NCBI RefSeq assembly: GCF_009914755.1
Contig: NC_060946.1
Direction: 5' to 3' (one strand)
Origin: the human T2T-CHM13v2.0 reference genome, Homo sapiens
Length of the DNA: 64,000 nucleotides
The position numbers were made by a program, and so were the translations under genes. The notes under the pieces are model-generated. The model was not told the DNA's origin. It saw only the letters and a list, made by a program, of their open reading frames with translations, and did not search any database. Of this stretch, positions 2,181 to 18,410 are shown piece by piece. The first letter of the stretch is position 1. Every line of letters begins with the position of its first letter.

Positions 2181-5100
2181 TCCTTTTACATCCTGCATCC
2201 TTCAACGTTCCATCCCCCACCCCACAGATTAAGTTATTCCCCAGGGGAGAATATGGCAAAGTCTATTTTAATGCAGTTTTTAACCCAATTAAGAACCTAT
2301 GAAATCATTACTTTCCAAAACTTTGGAACAAAGCCACAGTAGTATGGATCCGTTGGAGGCTTTTCGCACAATAAAATGTACCTCTCTTTGTTTTTAACAT
2401 GTTTTTCCCTTCCTCTCTTCTTTTTTTGTGAAATGTGTATTTACTTTAATATATTTGTAGTAAGTCACTTCCATGCACATATTAATTTTTTAAAGTAATA
2501 AGTATGTGTATTGTCTACGTGTGAAAGAAAACACACATTTATTTTTATGCTTTGGAAGTTATCCAGAATCATGGAATTGTCAATCACAGTCAATCACCCA
2601 ACCTACTCACCTTTCCAGTGTAATCTTAGTCAAATTTTTTTTTTGTTATCCAATGAGATGCAGTATTTCAACTCAGAAAGATAAATAGAGTGAATTTATA
2701 GAGACTATTAACTAAGAACATACAGTTTTATTTATACTCAGAAGCAAGTAGATTATGTACATATATATGAAGATAAAAATTAAAAGGATAATTGTGTAAA
2801 TTTGCATGTAGAGGGCTTTGAAAACCTGTTTACTTGTTAATGCTGTTTTGATGTATTGTGTCTTTGTTCTCCCGACCCATCGTCCAGAGCTCTCTGCAGG
2901 AGCTAAGTGCTCATCAGTTCCATGACTTGGAAACTGTCTAAGTTTAGAGGCACTTGTATTTGTTAGTAAATAAGGCAAGATGATATTGTTTCACAGGTTT
3001 TAGTGCCGAAGACTGAATAGATAAGCTGCTCCACCCAGTACACTGGTGTTCATTTCATGGTCATCTCATCTGTTAACCATGGATATAAAACATTTATCTT
3101 CAATGATGGGGTTTTACCATGTTGGTCAGGCTGGTCTCGAACTCCTGACCTCAAATGATCCACCCACCTCCACCTTCCAAACTGCTGGGATTACAGGTGT
3201 GAGCCACTATGCCTGACTGATTATTTTCATAACCAAGAAAAGAAATAAATACAATTAATGCTGGTGCATGGTATTAAATCCAGTTTTTAAAAAATTCACA
3301 CATAAACAAGGCAGAACCCTATACCCTCCATGATAAATGCAGTAGCAGTGTATGTGGGTCTGTGGAAGTTGAAAGGGACTTGGTAGATGTCAAGAAGGTA
3401 GTGGCAGTCCTGCTGGGCTTTTAAAGGGTCTGAAGAAGTGACAGGATGCTGTGGTTGAATCCTAGCATGTATTTTAGCATTTGTTCATTTGGAGTTGATT
3501 ATTTCACGTTGCTTTCATTTGCCATTACCTGGAAAGCCAAGGGCTCTACTCTCATTTCCTTGCTGCTCTTTCTTTGCCTTCCTTGGTCCGTGAAGAAGAT
3601 GGTCCAGGAGAAGCTCATTCCATGCTTGTTAACCAGGCACGCCCCTAAGTTCCAGTCCCTGAGTCATTCATGAGTAGCACTGCCAATGAACTGATAGCCA
3701 TGCTGTGTCCCTCCACATCCCCTAGGTGACTCGAAGAAGCCTTCCAAAAAGCATGTGAAAAGGAAGCCCTACTCTACTACCAAGGTAAAGTAGCCTGTCT
3801 TTGCCTAAGATGTAAATGTTGTTTTCTTGGATCCTTTATTTTTCAGTTGATATCAGCTATGGGAAAATTCTCCACTACATTATAGGTGTTAGATAATATT
3901 TCCTTGGGGATGGAGGAGGTGTATTTTACCAACTGACACCTGATTCCAGAGGACGTGCAAAATTGGCAGTGTCAGATAGTACACTGGGTGTTAAGGGATG
4001 TTTTCTTCAGGAACAAGCTTTCCACTTTAGATAAGAATTCTGCAATTGCTACTCAAAAATTACCTAGACAGAAACATTCTTCAAGAAAAGCTCCTGTGCT
4101 TTCCTAAGGGAACTCTACTCTAGAGTTGGGGCTTTTGACTTGAACCTTATTTCCAGTCTTGGTTACCCAGAGTTTCCAAGTGAACAAAAGACCTGTGTGA
4201 GCCATCCATAGCATAGCCTGATTCTCAGAGTGTTTTCCTTCTCTAATTACAGGTGACTTCAGGGAGCACATTCAATGGTACGTATTCTGGAATCACTCAC
4301 TGGTTGTTAGAAAAGGATTCTACAGGAAATCTGGAGCTTAACTGCTGGCTTTTGTCTGGAGAGCCTCCATGATCCAAGACATCTGGTGGGAATGAGGATG
4401 TAGGGTATAGTAAAAGAAACTGGTTTTCCTGGTGACATACTCTTTTTATCTATGTATAGTTTCTGGGAACATGTTCACATTAGGTTGTGTGTGGGTATGT
4501 GTGTATTAGGGCGGGGGTGGGGTGAGGTGGTCTGTGTGCAAGTCTGCATGATTTGCTTGTGAATGTGTGTCTATGTGTGTTTCCCCTAGGAAAAAAATGT
4601 TGTGTTTACCCAGCACAACTCTCAGTGCCATTTTTCTTAATTTAACAAATCAGACCACATACTTTACTTACATTAGTTCACACCTCATCATCATCATGCC
4701 CATATGTTGTGAGCTTGTTTACTGAGCCCACATGCCAGATGGAGAAACTAAGCCACATAAATAAATGTGCCCTGGTTCACTTGCTGCATAGTGAAGAGTC
4801 AAAATGTTTACTCAAACGGTGCTAATGTTGAAGGCCTGAACTACAACCTCTATTTATCAGCCAGTGAAGAGATCACTATTCACCATGCAAGGGAGTTCCA
4901 GCACCCTCTATGCCTGGAATTACCCACACCTGCAGAGATCCCAAACGCCATCCCTCACATAAGAGAACGTCATGATCTCATAATCCAGGTAGCTATGTAG
5001 ACATCTTCCTGCAGGTGTCACATAGTCCTTAGTGTGAAACCAACATAGAAAGCCCATGTTTCTGATCAAATCACAGGTTCTGAAACACTAAGGGAGGCAC

Positions 5101-7660
5101 TAAGTAGGACAATGTGGTGCCTGCGTGTCATAGCTGGGTCTCCTCAAGACATGGATCAAGTCCAGTAAGAATTGGGGAGATGCTTTAGAGTCTTGATGGA
5201 GTTATCACCACAAGCCCTCTGAGCTACACACTTTAGGGATCATGACCATTAAGTACTCAAATTACCATTTGGTTGTTATCCGGGTATCCGTCGTCCTTGT
5301 GGCAACCCTCTTGTGAAGCTGGTGTGGACAGCCTCAGTGCTGGAGCTGTGCCTCCCTTCTGAGTGGACCCTTTCTGTGTTAGCAGGTGGGTACAAGCGTG
5401 GGGGTCAGCACACTCAGTGGATTTACACACACAGCGTTGAAGAGTAATGCTGGGCTTCATTATTTATACATTTTCAATAAATGATGATCTTCATAACATA
5501 AAATCAATGATGTAGTACACTAGAATACTGTCCCTAGTATTGAATCTTGTCTCTCAGCAAAGGGTTGCTTAAAGTCACGTGACAGATTCCATTCAACTGA
5601 TGACACATGCTGTAGCAGCAGTTAAAGCAGTCATTTGAAAAGGCTTTTACTATAAACTTATATGTGAGCCTGAAGTGGGGGATAAAAGAGGCGATTAGCT
5701 CCCCTGTGCCATGTTTCTATTATGTGCGTGGTGGAGGAAAATTACACAGGAAGGTGATGGAGAGAACAGAGCAAAGGATTGGACAGGTCCATTGAACCCA
5801 TAAGACTATGGTGAGGTTAGTGAATGAGACTGGTCATTTTAGGTCAAATTTTACCCAGAGCTGGTGCAGCCACTGCCCATTCTTAGCCAGACCTTATTGC
5901 AGGCAGCTCTGATCAATAGTCAAGGAGGCAGTGGGGCTTGCAGACTTAATTCATTAAATCACCAAAGCACCAGCCCACACGGCCACTTTTCCAGTTAATT
6001 CACAGTAGCTTGCATATTCAGGTTTGATCAGTGGAAGGGAAGTTACTCTTTGCAGACCCATTTTTGACAATCATTTTGCGGTGTCGGAAGGTCTGAGCAG
6101 CCTCGGGAGGCAAGCAGTCCCTGGTCCCTCAGTGTAGTCACTGGAGGAGACAGTCACTGAGAGGCAGCTGGCAGGGTGAAGGGAAAGGGGAGGCAGGCCA
6201 CAGAGATGACAGCCTTTAAGCTGTCATACTGGGAGGTCAAGGATCTGAAAGAGGAAGGAGAATTCTTTATCATTAAGGACCTGTCCTTATCTCAGGCATT
6301 TCCTCCAGAGCATCACCTTTGTCCACCCACACACCTTGGGCTAGGAGGACTGGAGAAAGACAGTGAGGGGTCTCTTGGGTCTCTGGCACAGGGCGTGATG
6401 AAGAGGTGGCAGTTTTTCAGGAATCTCTCTCTCTAGGGAACCAAATACATTTCCCATCTCAGGTCCTTCACTCAGCGGGGTTGAGGTTCTGCTCGTCACT
6501 TATCATCTCTGAATGTCAGCACCCTCAAGTGTAAAATCTCAGCCACAGCCCCTCCTCTGCACCCCCTGCAGGGCTGATGTTCTCCATAAACCATAAGGCG
6601 TCATGCCCACGGAAAAGCCGAACAGGAAAGCATGCTCCACTGCCCCGGAGCCATCCAAGTTCCCCCTCCATATTCCGCCACTGCTAAGTGTCCAGCTTAT
6701 TCCTCCTGGCCTGTAGTAAACACTTAGAGAACATTACTGAAGTACCAGTCCTCTCTAAGGTTTTCCTGTATTTAGTGATTTTTTAGCCCTGTACTGTGAT
6801 ACTAAGAAGTAGGGCCTAAATAGGGCCTAAAAAGTATTGCTAAAATTACATTATGACAGTGCAGAGAACTGAGGGCAGAGGGAGGACATGAGCTTGCCAG
6901 GTCCACATGGCTTAGTGGAATTTGAATCCGGGCCCCCACTCTGCACCAGCCCTGCACTCACAGTCATCCGGCTGTGTTCTCCTCTCCAGGAAGGCACTGC
7001 CCACGCAGTCTGTCTGATAGAGGTGTTGAGTGCTCACTGAACTCCGTGATCTTCCTGAAACCCAACTTTGATTCAGTGGGCTCTGCTTGGAAGCCTGTAA
7101 AGAAAAGGATCATAAGTTTAAACTTAGAACAGATTATCACTATTTTCCCTCTGGTCTTCTGTCAGCAAGATGTCAACAGCCCTATCTATTGTCAATGCAT
7201 TAACCAGCATCTTCTCTGATAGAGAATACAAGAAGATATGCTGTGCACACCAACCAGTGTCGGAGACCTCATGGCTCCCGGGTAAAGAAGAAGAGGTACC
7301 CACAAGAAGGTACTGTGGAAGTTCATTAATTAAGTTGATTCAAGAATTGCAGTTGCGGGGAGTATTCAGTGTCCCATATGTAAGAGGAAACTATGAAGAG
7401 ACTAAGCCATATTTTTTAATGTGTCAGGATTCTAATTTGCCTGGTCAGTAAATATTGCTACCACCACAAAAGTAAATATCTACTTAAAAGTCAATTTTGG
7501 TTCATGTTTAATGATAGACAATGTTTCAAGCTAATGTCTAGAACTTACCTGGTTGTTAAACATAAGCATAGATCTCCCTGAAAGAGTGGTGCTATATTAT
7601 TATTTTTCAATTAATATATTTCTTTAGAGAGTTTTAAATTGACATAAAAACTGAGCATAT

Positions 7661-7967
7661 GGCCGTGTGTGGTGGCTCACACTTATAATCCCAGCACTTT
7701 AGGAGGCCAAGGCAGGCGGATCATCTGAGGTCAGGAGTTGGAGACCAGCCTGGCCAACATGGTGAAACCCCATCTCTACTAAAAATCCAAAAAAATTAGC
7801 CGGGTGTGGTGGCAGGCGCCTGTAATCCCAGCTACTCAGGAGGCTGAGGCAGGAGAATCGCTTGAACCCGGGAGGCAGAGGTTGCAGTGAGCCAAGATCA
7901 TGCCATTGCACTCCAGCCTGGGTGACAAGAGTGAAACTCCATCTCAAAATAAATAAATAAATAAAAA
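7661..7967 (+). mobile_element. AluS element
   Basis: Full dimeric Alu with (AAAT)n tail. Confidence 0.9.
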
Positions 7968-18206: not shown

Positions 18207-18225
18207 CTGTATACGACATCGCTAA
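17041..18225 (+). other. 394-aa repeat ORF (ASPTRTPPR)n, similar to the uncharacterised DKFZp434B061-type predicted protein; probably an off-frame reading of the VNTR
   Basis: ORF track 17041..18225. The ATG is in weak context (ccccATGa), 6 nt after a splice acceptor, and in a different frame from the one the upstream exons splice into. Confidence 0.35.
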
Positions 18226-18410
18226 CGAGGACACCCTACAAGCCGTCGCTAACAAGTACACTGTACACAACATCGCTAATGAGGGCACTGTACAAGACAT
18301 CACCAATGAGGGCGCTTTATACGACATTGCTAATGGCACCGACAAGGCACGCTAACGTGGACGCTGTACACGACATTGCTAATGAGGACAGCGTATAAGA
18401 CATCGCTAGT

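What the first reader, a model, noticed from the sequence alone, without database searches (positions are those of the whole stretch)
3726..18398. Hidden >=564-codon spliced reading frame in the FAM230 'lncRNA'
Joining exons 3726-3784, 4253-4277, 7223-7309, 12200-12265, 14265-14326, 14792-14825 and 17035+ keeps phase at all six introns with no stop. It reads DSKKPSKKHVKRKPYSTTK-VTSGSTFN-ENTRRYAVHTNQCRRPHGSRVKKKRYPQE-DDFHHTVFSNLERLDKLQPTLE-ASEESLVHKDRGDGERPVNAR-VVQVAPLRRES-TPHEDTVHDITNEDA...(EDAAQGIAN)n...ANEDSV*, with TAA at 18396-18398. The ORF track misses it because this frame has no start codon within the VNTR; the start would be upstream of the window. A basic NLS-like N-terminus (KKPSKKHVKRK, RVKKKR) plus a long acidic 9-aa repeat suggests a real or recently dead protein gene whose length varies with the VNTR (inference).
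Basis: partly seen in the sequence, partly recalled or inferred. Interest (0 to 1): 0.85.

Follow-up and report, generated by a model that had tools for sequence, protein, structure and literature searches.

The report
Known protein frame inside FAM230B lncRNA
The FAM230B "non-coding" gene does carry a long intact protein-reading frame, inherited from a fast-evolving, testis-expressed gene family of apes and Old World monkeys, but this frame is already in print and in databases for its near-identical sister copies.

Summary
Joining the seven listed exons gives one stop-free frame of 564 codons ending at TAA 18396-18398, across six GT-AG introns.

Annotated exon 1 (1645-1749) holds the transcript's first AUG, at 1722-1724, in frame. 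The ORF is 574 codons, or 547 on the RefSeq exon chain.

Most of the length is uninformative, because the 27-bp VNTR is stop-free in 2 of 3 sense frames. The 120 non-repeat codons are open in only 0.14% of shuffles.

The ORF is not hidden:
- Two LCR22A paralogs are annotated protein_coding with the same start and exon chain.
- A 2020 paper notes large FAM230 ORFs.
- A PeptideAtlas audit reports FAM230A peptides, almost all from testis or sperm.

All 36 profile hits are catarrhine proteins.

Between the two old family lineages, coding exons diverged about three times faster than introns. Recent human copies change as expected under neutrality. The ancestral C-terminus is broken, and the stop lies 1,034 nt before four further junctions, so the mRNA should be prone to nonsense-mediated decay (NMD).

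Verdict: a real inherited coding frame, already known, whose present function is unproven.

The parts
1645..1749 (+). Exon 1 of FAM230B. It holds the ORF start ATG at 1722-1724, followed by 28 coding nt. The peptide begins MGNLCGC.
   Evidence: this is the first ATG of the annotated transcript, with an in-frame TGA upstream and a GT donor. The same 28-nt coding start is used by the Gnomon CDS of two paralogs.
3726..3784 (+). Exon 2 (59 nt), encoding the basic cluster that includes DSKKPSKK.
   Evidence: AG/GT ends, in frame. The motif is invariant or nearly so in 14 aligned primate proteins.
4253..4277 (+). Exon 3 (25 nt).
7223..7309 (+). Exon 4 (87 nt). It is the fastest-diverging coding exon between the FAM230B and FAM230I lineages.
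   Evidence: 24 of 84 aligned nt differ (28.6%), against 17/199 and 11/200 in the 200-nt flanks.
12200..12265 (+). Exon 5 (66 nt, 22 codons). It is an in-frame cassette, absent from FAM230I and from many primate isoforms.
14265..14326 (+). Exon 6 (62 nt).
14792..14876 (+). Exon 7. The annotated donor lies after 14825. A second in-frame donor lies after 14876 and adds 51 nt (17 codons); this longer form is the one seen in the gibbon, colobus and gelada proteins.
   Evidence: GT at 14877-14878, and the long form stays in frame..
17035..18398 (+). Coding part of the VNTR exon, ending at TAA 18396-18398. The last ~60 codons leave and re-enter the repeat's peptide register.
   Evidence: Paralogs F and H, and the window copy B, share this tail and stop; D and the two Gnomon-annotated copies have a longer, duplicated out-of-register stretch before the same stop context.
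17060..18206 (+). 27-bp, G+C-rich VNTR with 42.5 copies, encoding the 9-residue unit EDAAQGIAN and its variants.
   Evidence: TRF, 93% matches; of 43 units, 11 carry that unit exactly; there are 62 non-synonymous and 6 synonymous codon differences from the consensus.
17157..17237 (+). An 81-nt gap in the RefSeq transcript alignment, equal to three repeat units. It is not a true intron.
   Evidence: GC...AC ends, and the length is 3 x 27.
18681..19408 (+). A second, degenerate 27-bp array lying 3' of the stop. It is the older repeat block and has stops in every register.
   Evidence: 27.3 copies, 76% matches; the best match to the gibbon and colobus repeat region is 19145-19429, in a different frame from the ORF.
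19400..24657 (+). Relics of the ancestral C-terminus, out of frame or broken. The pieces are the tail motif at 19400-19429, then 20255-20299, 21098-21145, 22657-22698, and 24543-24657. The last is a remnant of the hydrophobic tail anchor, with two stops and a frame change.
   Evidence: tblastn of the colobus protein P0002 against the window.

Best explanation
FAM230B is one copy of a gene family restricted, as far as these searches see, to apes and Old World monkeys. The family began as, and in several species is still annotated as, a protein-coding gene.

The ancestral product was a small protein. The one available structure model, of the colobus member, is of low confidence, which fits a disordered protein. 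It had:
- a Met-Gly-x-x-x-Ser/Gly-Cys N-terminus followed by a basic cluster;
- a short run of acidic 9-residue repeats;
- an acidic tail;
- in at least one monkey, a hydrophobic C-terminal anchor.

In the human LCR22 copies, the repeat block expanded into a G+C-rich 27-bp VNTR. A register slip inside the array brings in an early stop, and the old C-terminal exons have decayed.

What remains in FAM230B is an intact 574-codon frame that opens at the first AUG of the testis-expressed transcript. It can therefore be translated. It probably is translated at a low level in testis, because published peptides map to the family, though not to any one copy.

The stop lies far upstream of four more splice junctions, so the mRNA should be an NMD substrate. 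Recent copies change as expected without constraint.

Shown here: the frame, the start, the homology, the exon-specific acceleration and the broken C-terminus. Inferred: lipid anchoring, translation of this particular copy, and any present function.
For: Frame and start:
- 574-codon ORF from ATG 1722-1724, the first AUG of the transcript.

Same CDS annotated elsewhere:
- LOC128966590 (445 aa) and LOC128966596 (474 aa) are protein_coding in this annotation, with the identical 28+59+25+87+66+62+34-nt exon chain plus the VNTR exon.

Frame kept across human copies:
- All 10 of 10 copies examined (B, D, F, J, G, H, C, I and the two LOC genes) keep an ATG and an open frame through exons 1-7.
- FAM230I lncRNA transcripts NR_110539.2 and NR_165489.1 carry a 240-aa ORF from their first AUG.

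Homologues:
- 21 proteins found with a single query and 36 with a profile. All 36 of 36 are catarrhine, and some are named FAM230A.
- In the N-terminal tree, the FAM230I-type clade (support 100/98) contains gibbons, great apes and Old World monkeys. The two lineages therefore split before those groups did, and both kept ORFs.

Splicing signatures of coding sequence:
- The cassette exon (66 nt) and the alternative donor (+51 nt) both preserve the frame.

Exon-specific acceleration, FAM230B versus FAM230I:
- Coding sequence 50/291 differences versus introns 165/3122, p = 7e-12.
- Exons 54/369 versus 200-nt flanks 161/2393, p = 1e-6.
- pN 0.185 versus flanks 0.067, p = 2e-8.

Literature:
- FAM230A has 6 strong peptides, almost all from testis or sperm (passages).
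- FAM230 RNA in normal tissues is found only in testes, and FAM230 carries large ORFs (passages).
Against: No purifying selection is visible in recent copies:
- Among 9 FAM230B-type copies, 20 of 360 sites vary. 17 change an amino acid and 3 are silent; 78% non-synonymous is expected under neutrality.
- B versus C has 12 non-synonymous and 1 synonymous difference.
- B versus C exons (16/437) do not differ from flanks (86/2799), p = 0.46.
- VNTR units differ from their consensus by 62 non-synonymous and 6 synonymous codon changes.

The open frame among recent copies is uninformative. Only 2.8% of point changes would create a stop, so about 0.6 stops are expected over 20 changes.

For B versus I, pN (0.185) is not significantly above pS (0.127), p = 0.27.

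The mRNA looks unstable. The stop is 1,034 nt upstream of the next junction and four junctions follow. A FAM230A transcript is described as an NMD candidate.

The Kozak -3 position is C.

The published peptides cannot be assigned to any copy, and the audit calls FAM230C's 19 peptides 'aberrant'.

The primate proteins are automatic predictions. Pipelines report only intact ORFs, so the apparent conservation of the frame is subject to ascertainment bias.

There is no Pfam family, and the Atlas model of the colobus protein is poor, with pLDDT 0.40.
Confidence: 0.75

Rival explanations
1. Living gene under positive selection. On this reading, FAM230B and its sisters still make a functional testis or sperm protein. 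Its sequence and repeat length are being driven to change, as in the core-duplicon gene families of other human segmental duplications. The lncRNA label would then be an annotation error.
For: - Coding exons diverged about three times faster than introns between the two old lineages.
- In exon 1 the differences concentrate in the coding part: 7/28 versus 5/77 in the UTR, p = 0.014.
- B versus C has 12 non-synonymous and 1 synonymous difference, with dN 0.044 against intron divergence 0.021.
- The Met-Gly...Cys start is kept in 9 of the 14 aligned primate proteins; the other 5 have a different or truncated N-terminus.
- Peptides are reported from testis and sperm.
- The ORF opens at the first AUG.
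Against: - The acceleration is dated to the old split and not to the human copies.
- The recent pattern is statistically indistinguishable from neutrality.
- The ancestral C-terminus, including the anchor, is lost.
- The mRNA has NMD-prone architecture.
- In the chr13 copy, the residue at position 6 of the N-terminal motif has changed to Tyr.
- One exon-1 copy of FAM230J has lost its ATG.
Confidence: 0.25
2. Dead relic. On this reading, the transcript acts only as RNA or not at all. The frame survives merely because the copies are young and the VNTR happens to lack stops. Any peptides would come from pervasive testis translation without function.
For: - Substitution among recent copies looks neutral.
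- The VNTR is stop-free in 2 of 3 frames on each strand.
- The mRNA has an NMD-prone structure.
- RefSeq curators class all 9 named FAM230 genes as lncRNA.
- The audit classes FAM230A as 'unplaced' and FAM230C as 'aberrant'.
Against: - The frame is kept, from the first AUG, in two lineages that split before apes and Old World monkeys did.
- The non-repeat 120 codons are open in only 0.14% of shuffles.
- Exon-limited acceleration is hard to produce without selection on the product at some time in the past.
Confidence: 0.35
3. Chance frame. On this reading, the long ORF is an accident of joining exons around a stop-free minisatellite.
For: About 450 of the 574 codons lie in a VNTR that is open in 2 of 3 sense frames.
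Against: - The non-repeat part is open in only 0.14% of shuffles.
- It starts at the first AUG of the transcript.
- It is homologous along its length to 36 primate proteins.
Confidence: 0.01

Closest known systems
FAM230A putative protein, and the Gnomon protein-coding paralogs LOC128966590 and LOC128966596 in LCR22A of T2T-CHM13
   Same: They share the start codon position, the 28+59+25+87+66+62+34-nt exon chain, the frame, the 9-residue repeat and the stop context. A chimpanzee protein labelled 'FAM230A isoform 2' and a human p14ARF/FAM230A fusion protein read the same frame.
   Different: FAM230B is curated as lncRNA (NR_165621.1). Its VNTR is longer, giving 574 codons against 445 and 474. 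It carries a few private residues, for example His at position 19 where D, F, G, H, J, C and LOC128966590 have Arg; LOC128966596 also has His there.
FAM230I and the catarrhine 'uncharacterized protein LOC...' predictions (colobus, gelada, macaque, gibbon and great apes)
   Same: They share the N-terminal motif, the basic cluster, the conserved middle block and the acidic 9-residue repeats.
   Different: They have only about 8-15 repeats, and these stay in frame with an acidic tail. In colobus there is also a hydrophobic C-terminal anchor. In FAM230B those C-terminal pieces are out of frame or broken.
Core-duplicon gene families of human segmental duplications, such as the NPIP/morpheus family of LCR16a (recalled; no call examined it)
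   Same: The gene sits in a duplicon that expanded in the human lineage (passages). Exons diverged faster than introns between old paralogs.
   Different: No significant dN > dS was obtained here (p = 0.27). The recent copies look neutral. No sequence relationship to these families was tested or is expected.
N-terminally myristoylated and palmitoylated membrane-anchored proteins with a polybasic patch, such as the SH4-type N-termini of Src-family kinases (recalled)
   Same: Gly at position 2, a small residue at position 6, cysteines at positions 5 and 7, and a Lys/Arg-rich stretch within the next 20 residues.
   Different: This is a motif-level resemblance only. There is no homology and no experimental lipidation, and the consensus used is recalled and was not scanned with a tool.

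Membership tests
FAM230 protein family (FAM230A-type ORF) | The same start codon and coding exon chain as the annotated CDS of the paralogs. | tested here: met
   a 28-nt coding start in exon 1, then exons of 59, 25, 87, 66, 62 and 34 nt, then the VNTR exon.
FAM230 protein family (FAM230A-type ORF) | Sequence homology to proteins that public sources label FAM230A. | tested here: met
   P0025 ('FAM230A isoform 2', chimpanzee) reads the same frame. In the tree it falls inside the 99/97-supported group that holds human B, C and D.
FAM230 protein family (FAM230A-type ORF) | Protein product detected from this particular copy. | not testable with these tools
   the published peptides map to several loci.
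Long non-coding RNA (the current RefSeq class) | No long conserved ORF opening at the first AUG. | tested here: not met
   the first AUG opens 547 or 574 codons; the frame is shared with 36 catarrhine proteins.
Long non-coding RNA (the current RefSeq class) | No purifying selection on the putative peptide. | tested here: met
   recent copies and VNTR units change mostly non-synonymously, at about the neutral proportion.
N-myristoylated / palmitoylated proteins | Met-Gly start matching the recalled consensus G-{EDRKHPFYW}-x(2)-[STAGCN]-{P}, with a nearby Cys. | tested here: met
   Read by eye. It is met in B, D, F, G, H, I and both LOC genes, and in the 9 of the 14 aligned primate proteins that begin Met-Gly...Cys. 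It is not met in the chr13 copy, which has Tyr at position 6. The consensus is recalled, and no predictor was run.
N-myristoylated / palmitoylated proteins | Lipid actually attached, and membrane localisation dependent on Gly2. | not testable with these tools
   This needs expression with a Gly2 mutant and metabolic labelling.
   Basic clusters are present, but they directly follow a lipidation-type N-terminus. No localisation predictor or experiment was available.
Tail-anchored membrane proteins (the ancestral form seen in colobus) | A single hydrophobic helix at the extreme C-terminus, in frame with the ORF. | tested here: not met
   the matching stretch at 24543-24657 carries two stops and a frame change, and it lies 6 kb beyond the ORF's stop.
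Positively selected duplicon genes | Exons more diverged than introns between paralogs. | tested here: met
   for B versus I: 17.2% against 5.3%, and 14.6% against 6.7%. It is not met for B versus C (3.7% against 3.1%, p = 0.46).
Positively selected duplicon genes | dN significantly above dS. | tested here: inconclusive
   pN 0.185 and pS 0.127, p = 0.27; omega of 1.6 (NG86) to 2.2 (ML) on 97 codons.

The most novel reading that the evidence does not exclude
FAM230 may be the protein-coding 'driver' gene of the LCR22 duplicon at which 22q11.2 deletions recombine. It would encode a lipid-anchored, acidic-repeat protein of testis or sperm that has evolved under positive selection since before apes and Old World monkeys split. 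Its repeat length would now differ several-fold between human copies, from 430 to 574 codons, and possibly more than 1,500 at FAM230G. Selection on this protein, not on any RNA, would then have favoured the spread of the duplicon. Copy-number and VNTR variation at the locus would have a reproductive phenotype.
Probability: 0.15. Interest if true: 0.7.

Novelty: already known. Interest (0 to 1): 0.3.

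Why it matters
The practical point is one of annotation. All nine named FAM230 genes in this assembly are labelled lncRNA. Two unnamed sister copies with the same exon chain are labelled protein-coding. The many cancer 'lncRNA FAM230B' papers treat the transcript as non-coding.

If the protein is real, those functional claims need re-reading. The 22q11.2 low-copy repeats would then hold a fast-evolving, testis-expressed coding family with variable repeat length.

If it is a relic, FAM230B is a clear case of a protein gene caught turning into a lncRNA.

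Either way, the frame itself is not a discovery. It is in print and in databases for FAM230A.

Tried and rejected
Searches and tests that gave little or nothing:
- Homologue search with the VNTR exon alone. It returned only 2 hits from 757 scored candidates, and 7,243 candidates known from samples alone or of untold source were left out. The colobus hit then served as a better query.
- Pfam scan of 5 family proteins plus the VNTR exon translation. 5 of 6 had no family. P0003's five hits are repeat-driven with 0 or 1 qualifying stretch; one of them, PF06794, exceeds its whole-protein cutoff (31.2 vs 25.6 bits) but with 0 stretches. I rejected all five.
- Atlas search with P0002. There was no usable hit by features. 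Structural neighbours had TM of 0.33 or less on a model with pLDDT 0.40, which is meaningless. I therefore did not spend the structure-prediction or fold-search jobs.
- A codon-position signature inside the VNTR. There is no excess of silent change in the ORF frame; another register has more silent changes (25 silent against 43 non-silent).
- Using 'no stops among recent copies' as evidence of constraint. I rejected this because only about 0.6 stops are expected.

Literature searches:
- 'FAM230A' plus 'p14ARF': 0 papers.
- 'FAM230B' plus 'Ribo-seq': 0 papers.
- 'FAM230' plus 'positive selection': 18 papers. I read passages of 3 of them, and none tests selection on the ORF. This shows only that nothing turned up in the searched library.

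My own errors:
- One search was a script that crashed because a flank ran off the sequence. One search repeated it with 200-nt flanks.
- In one search I entered 3,138 as the intron total where it should have been 3,122.
- In one search I entered 9/28 versus 3/77 for exon 1 from a miscount. One search recounts from the sequences: 7/28 versus 5/77 (p = 0.014), and 165/3122.
- Note 1 said the VNTR is open in all three frames. One search shows it is 2 of 3.

Not done:
- Cross-species dN/dS, because no primate DNA was available here.
- The FAM230J ORF beyond exon 7.
- Sequence comparison of the small 'LOC388882-like' CDS with the window.

The G (1,532 codons) and C (306 codons) ORFs assume an exon 7 to VNTR junction that no annotated transcript of those genes shows.

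Full report
CHECK OF THE OBSERVATION

Joining 3726-3784, 4253-4277, 7223-7309, 12200-12265, 14265-14326, 14792-14825 and 17035-18398 gives 1,697 nt. At offset 2 this reads 564 codons and then TAA at 18396-18398. All six introns have AG/GT ends. The other two frames have 11 and 15 stops. These exons are those of RefSeq NR_165621.1.

First, the start is inside the window.
- Annotated exon 1 (1645-1749) contains ATG 1722-1724, in frame with exon 2.
- An in-frame TGA lies upstream, and no other ATG precedes it in the exon.
- The transcript's first AUG therefore opens the frame.
- The ORF is 574 codons on the contiguous VNTR exon, and 547 on the RefSeq chain.

Second, the RefSeq chain omits 17157-17237. 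That 81-nt 'intron' has GC...AC ends and equals three 27-bp units. It is an alignment gap caused by a difference in repeat number, not an intron.

IS IT MORE THAN CHANCE?

Most of the length is not informative. Tandem Repeats Finder reports a 27-bp array at 17060-18206 with 42.5 copies and 93% matches, and a second, degenerate array at 18681-19408. The first array has no stop in 2 of 3 sense frames and in 2 of 3 antisense frames.

The informative part is the 120 non-repeat codons from the ATG to the end of exon 7.
- They contain 0 stops, against 5 and 7 in the other frames.
- They are open in 0.14% of 20,000 mononucleotide shuffles.
- Some frame is open in 0.44% of shuffles.

WHAT IT IS

A homologue search with the VNTR exon found two predicted proteins, from gibbon and colobus. 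Their N-termini match the spliced window ORF exon by exon.

Searching again with the colobus protein gave 21 proteins. A profile of 14 of them (alignment A1) gave 36 proteins.
- All 36 of 36 are from apes or Old World monkeys.
- Several are named FAM230A.
- One is a human p14ARF/FAM230A fusion protein.
- These searches see only proteins with named public sources and within a length band, so absence outside catarrhines is only suggestive.

The family shares these features:
- A Met-Gly-x-x-x-Ser/Gly-Cys start, in the 9 of the 14 aligned proteins that begin Met-Gly...Cys.
- A basic cluster.
- A conserved middle block.
- 8-15 acidic 9-residue repeats.
- An acidic tail.
- In colobus, a hydrophobic C-terminal stretch.

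No Pfam family matches. The Atlas's own model of the colobus protein has pLDDT 0.40 and pTM 0.16, which points to disorder.

HUMAN COPIES

A six-frame search of the reference found matches only in chr22 (18.85-21.73 Mb; FAM230I at 23.9 Mb was reached from the annotation, not by this search) and at chr13:13.67 Mb. This count is a lower bound.

I fetched the annotated paralogs and mapped the exons by blastn.

All 10 of 10 copies examined keep an ATG and an open frame through exons 1-7. They are FAM230B, D, F, J, G, H, C, I, LOC128966590 and LOC128966596.
- In J, the exon-1 copy nearest exon 2 has ACG where the start codon should be. The other 2 of its 3 exon-1 copies keep ATG.
- FAM230I lacks exon 5, and its exon 4 is 3 nt shorter. 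Both differences are in frame.

ORF lengths:

| Copy | Codons or aa | Source |
|---|---|---|
| FAM230B | 574 | |
| FAM230D | 481 | |
| FAM230F | 475 | |
| FAM230H | 430 | |
| LOC128966590 | 445 aa | |
| LOC128966596 | 474 aa | |
| FAM230I (2 of the 3 annotated transcripts tested) | 240 aa | |
| FAM230G, only if exon 7 joins the 8.4-kb VNTR downstream | 1,532 | |
| FAM230C, under the same assumption | 306 | |

No annotated transcript of G or C shows that exon 7 to VNTR junction.

The two LOC genes are annotated protein_coding by Gnomon in the very annotation that calls FAM230B a lncRNA. They have the same 28-nt coding start in exon 1 and the same exon chain.

WHAT WAS LOST

tblastn of the colobus and gibbon proteins against the window gives the following:
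- The best match to the ancestral repeat block is at 19145-19429. This is a different frame from the ORF and lies beyond its stop.
- The ancestral tail pieces lie at 19400-19429, 20255-20299, 21098-21145 and 22657-22698.
- The hydrophobic anchor lies at 24543-24657, with two stops and a frame change.

Inside the ORF, the last ~60 codons run out of the repeat's peptide register and back again before the TAA. F and H share this tail with the window copy; D and the two LOC genes have a longer, duplicated out-of-register stretch, but all reach the same stop context.

Human FAM230B is therefore the N-terminal half of the ancestral protein fused to a greatly expanded repeat, with an early stop.

That stop is 1,034 nt upstream of the exon 9/10 junction, and four junctions follow. 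By the usual 50-55-nt rule (established knowledge), this predicts nonsense-mediated decay. Papers describe a FAM230A transcript in the same way.

SELECTION

Old split: FAM230B-type versus FAM230I-type.

The N-terminal tree puts gibbon, great-ape and Old World monkey proteins together in the I-type clade (support 100/98). The split therefore predates those groups.

Between the human B and I copies:
- Coding sequence differs at 50 of 291 aligned nt (17.2%), and at 33 of 97 residues.
- The three well-aligned introns differ at 165 of 3,122 nt (5.3%), p = 7e-12.
- A fourth intron aligned poorly (2,945 versus 2,074 nt, 20% apparent divergence), and I left it out.
- Whole exons 1-4, 6 and 7 differ at 54/369, against 161/2393 in their 200-nt flanks, p = 1e-6.
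- Exon 4 alone differs at 24/84.
- In exon 1 the coding part differs at 7/28 and the UTR at 5/77, p = 0.014.
- pN is 0.185 and pS is 0.127, which do not differ significantly (p = 0.27).
- pN exceeds the flank rate (p = 2e-8). pS versus the flanks gives p = 0.08.

Divergence limited to exons is what past positive selection on a protein would produce. It does not prove such selection, because omega > 1 is not significant on 97 codons.

Recent copies.
- Among 9 B-type copies, 20 of 360 sites vary. 17 change an amino acid and 3 are silent, against 78% non-synonymous expected under neutrality.
- B versus C has 12 non-synonymous and 1 synonymous difference.
- For B versus C, exons (16/437) do not differ from flanks (86/2799), p = 0.46.
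- Only 2.8% of point changes would create a stop, so the open frame among recent copies says nothing.
- Within the VNTR, the 43 units differ from their consensus by 62 non-synonymous and 6 synonymous codon changes.

There is therefore no sign of purifying selection in the human-era copies.

HOW IT MOST LIKELY WORKS

Shown here: an intact frame opening at the first AUG, inherited from a catarrhine protein family and truncated at the C-terminus.

From papers (passages only):
- FAM230A has 6 strong peptides in PeptideAtlas, 'almost all ... in testis or sperm', but they map to several loci and are classed as 'unplaced'. FAM230C has 19 peptides and is classed as 'aberrant' (PMC11601488).

Inferred:
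- The Met-Gly start has a small residue at position 6 and flanking cysteines, followed by a Lys/Arg cluster. This fits the recalled N-myristoylation consensus with palmitoylation and a polybasic membrane patch.
- The rest of the protein would be an acidic, disordered repeat.

I put about 0.75 on 'inherited coding frame, translatable, and probably translated at low level from some copies, with present function unproven'. Within that, I put roughly 0.25 on a still-functional protein and 0.35 on a pure relic.

COMPARISON AND NOVELTY

The closest known things are the FAM230A putative protein and the two Gnomon-annotated LCR22A paralogs, which have the same CDS architecture. Next are FAM230I and the catarrhine predictions, which have the ancestral architecture.

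The pattern of exons diverging faster than introns recalls core-duplicon families such as NPIP. This comparison is recalled and was not tested.

The frame is already in print and in databases for the family, so I rate it 'already known'. I found nothing in the searched library on three points: the conserved lipidation-type start, the exon-limited acceleration, or the broken tail anchor. This rests on 4 searches and on reading passages from 8 papers. Supplements were closed.

VERDICT

Interest is 0.3.

Noticed in passing
window 17157-17237: The annotated 81-nt 'intron' has GC...AC ends and equals exactly three 27-bp repeat units. The RefSeq transcript and CHM13 therefore differ by three VNTR units, which hints at length polymorphism or a collapsed repeat in the transcript's source.
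   Followed up: partly
window 18857-19432 and onward in the spliced transcript: A 215-codon ATG-started ORF lies in another register of the degenerate second array. By position, it corresponds to the single-exon Gnomon CDS 'putative uncharacterized protein LOC388882' that is annotated in two paralogs, LOC128966691 and LOC128966692. I did not compare the sequences.
   Followed up: no
chr22:20757766-20766141 (L023), downstream of FAM230G: An array of about 8.4 kb made of the same 27-bp repeat, with open frames of up to 2,211 codons. If exon 7 of FAM230G were spliced to it, the ORF would be 1,532 codons. The annotated FAM230G transcripts stop before the array.
   Followed up: partly
Paralog loci L001/L010/L002 (FAM230D), L003 (F), L004 (J), L008/L016 (C): The exon-1 unit is tandemly repeated upstream of exon 2: 3 copies in D, 2 in F, 3 in J and 3 in C. 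Where the copies are adjacent they are spaced about 845-860 bp apart. FAM230B has one copy. In J, the copy nearest exon 2 has ACG where the start codon should be.
   Followed up: partly
chr22:23884837-23909741 (L025, L007, L015), FAM230I: Two of the three annotated FAM230I lncRNA transcripts that I tested carry a 240-aa ORF from their first AUG. It matches the great-ape predicted proteins along its whole length, including the acidic tail. The third transcript skips a 31-nt exon and stops after 31 codons.
   Followed up: yes
window 14826-15300: Reading through the exon-7 donor gives a 191-codon short isoform. This is the form present in the human p14ARF/FAM230A fusion protein and in the chimpanzee 'FAM230A isoform 2'. 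It also matches the way the annotated FAM230G transcripts end.
   Followed up: partly
literature, not the window: [quoted passage not shown] I did not check whether that fragment is the VNTR.
   Followed up: no
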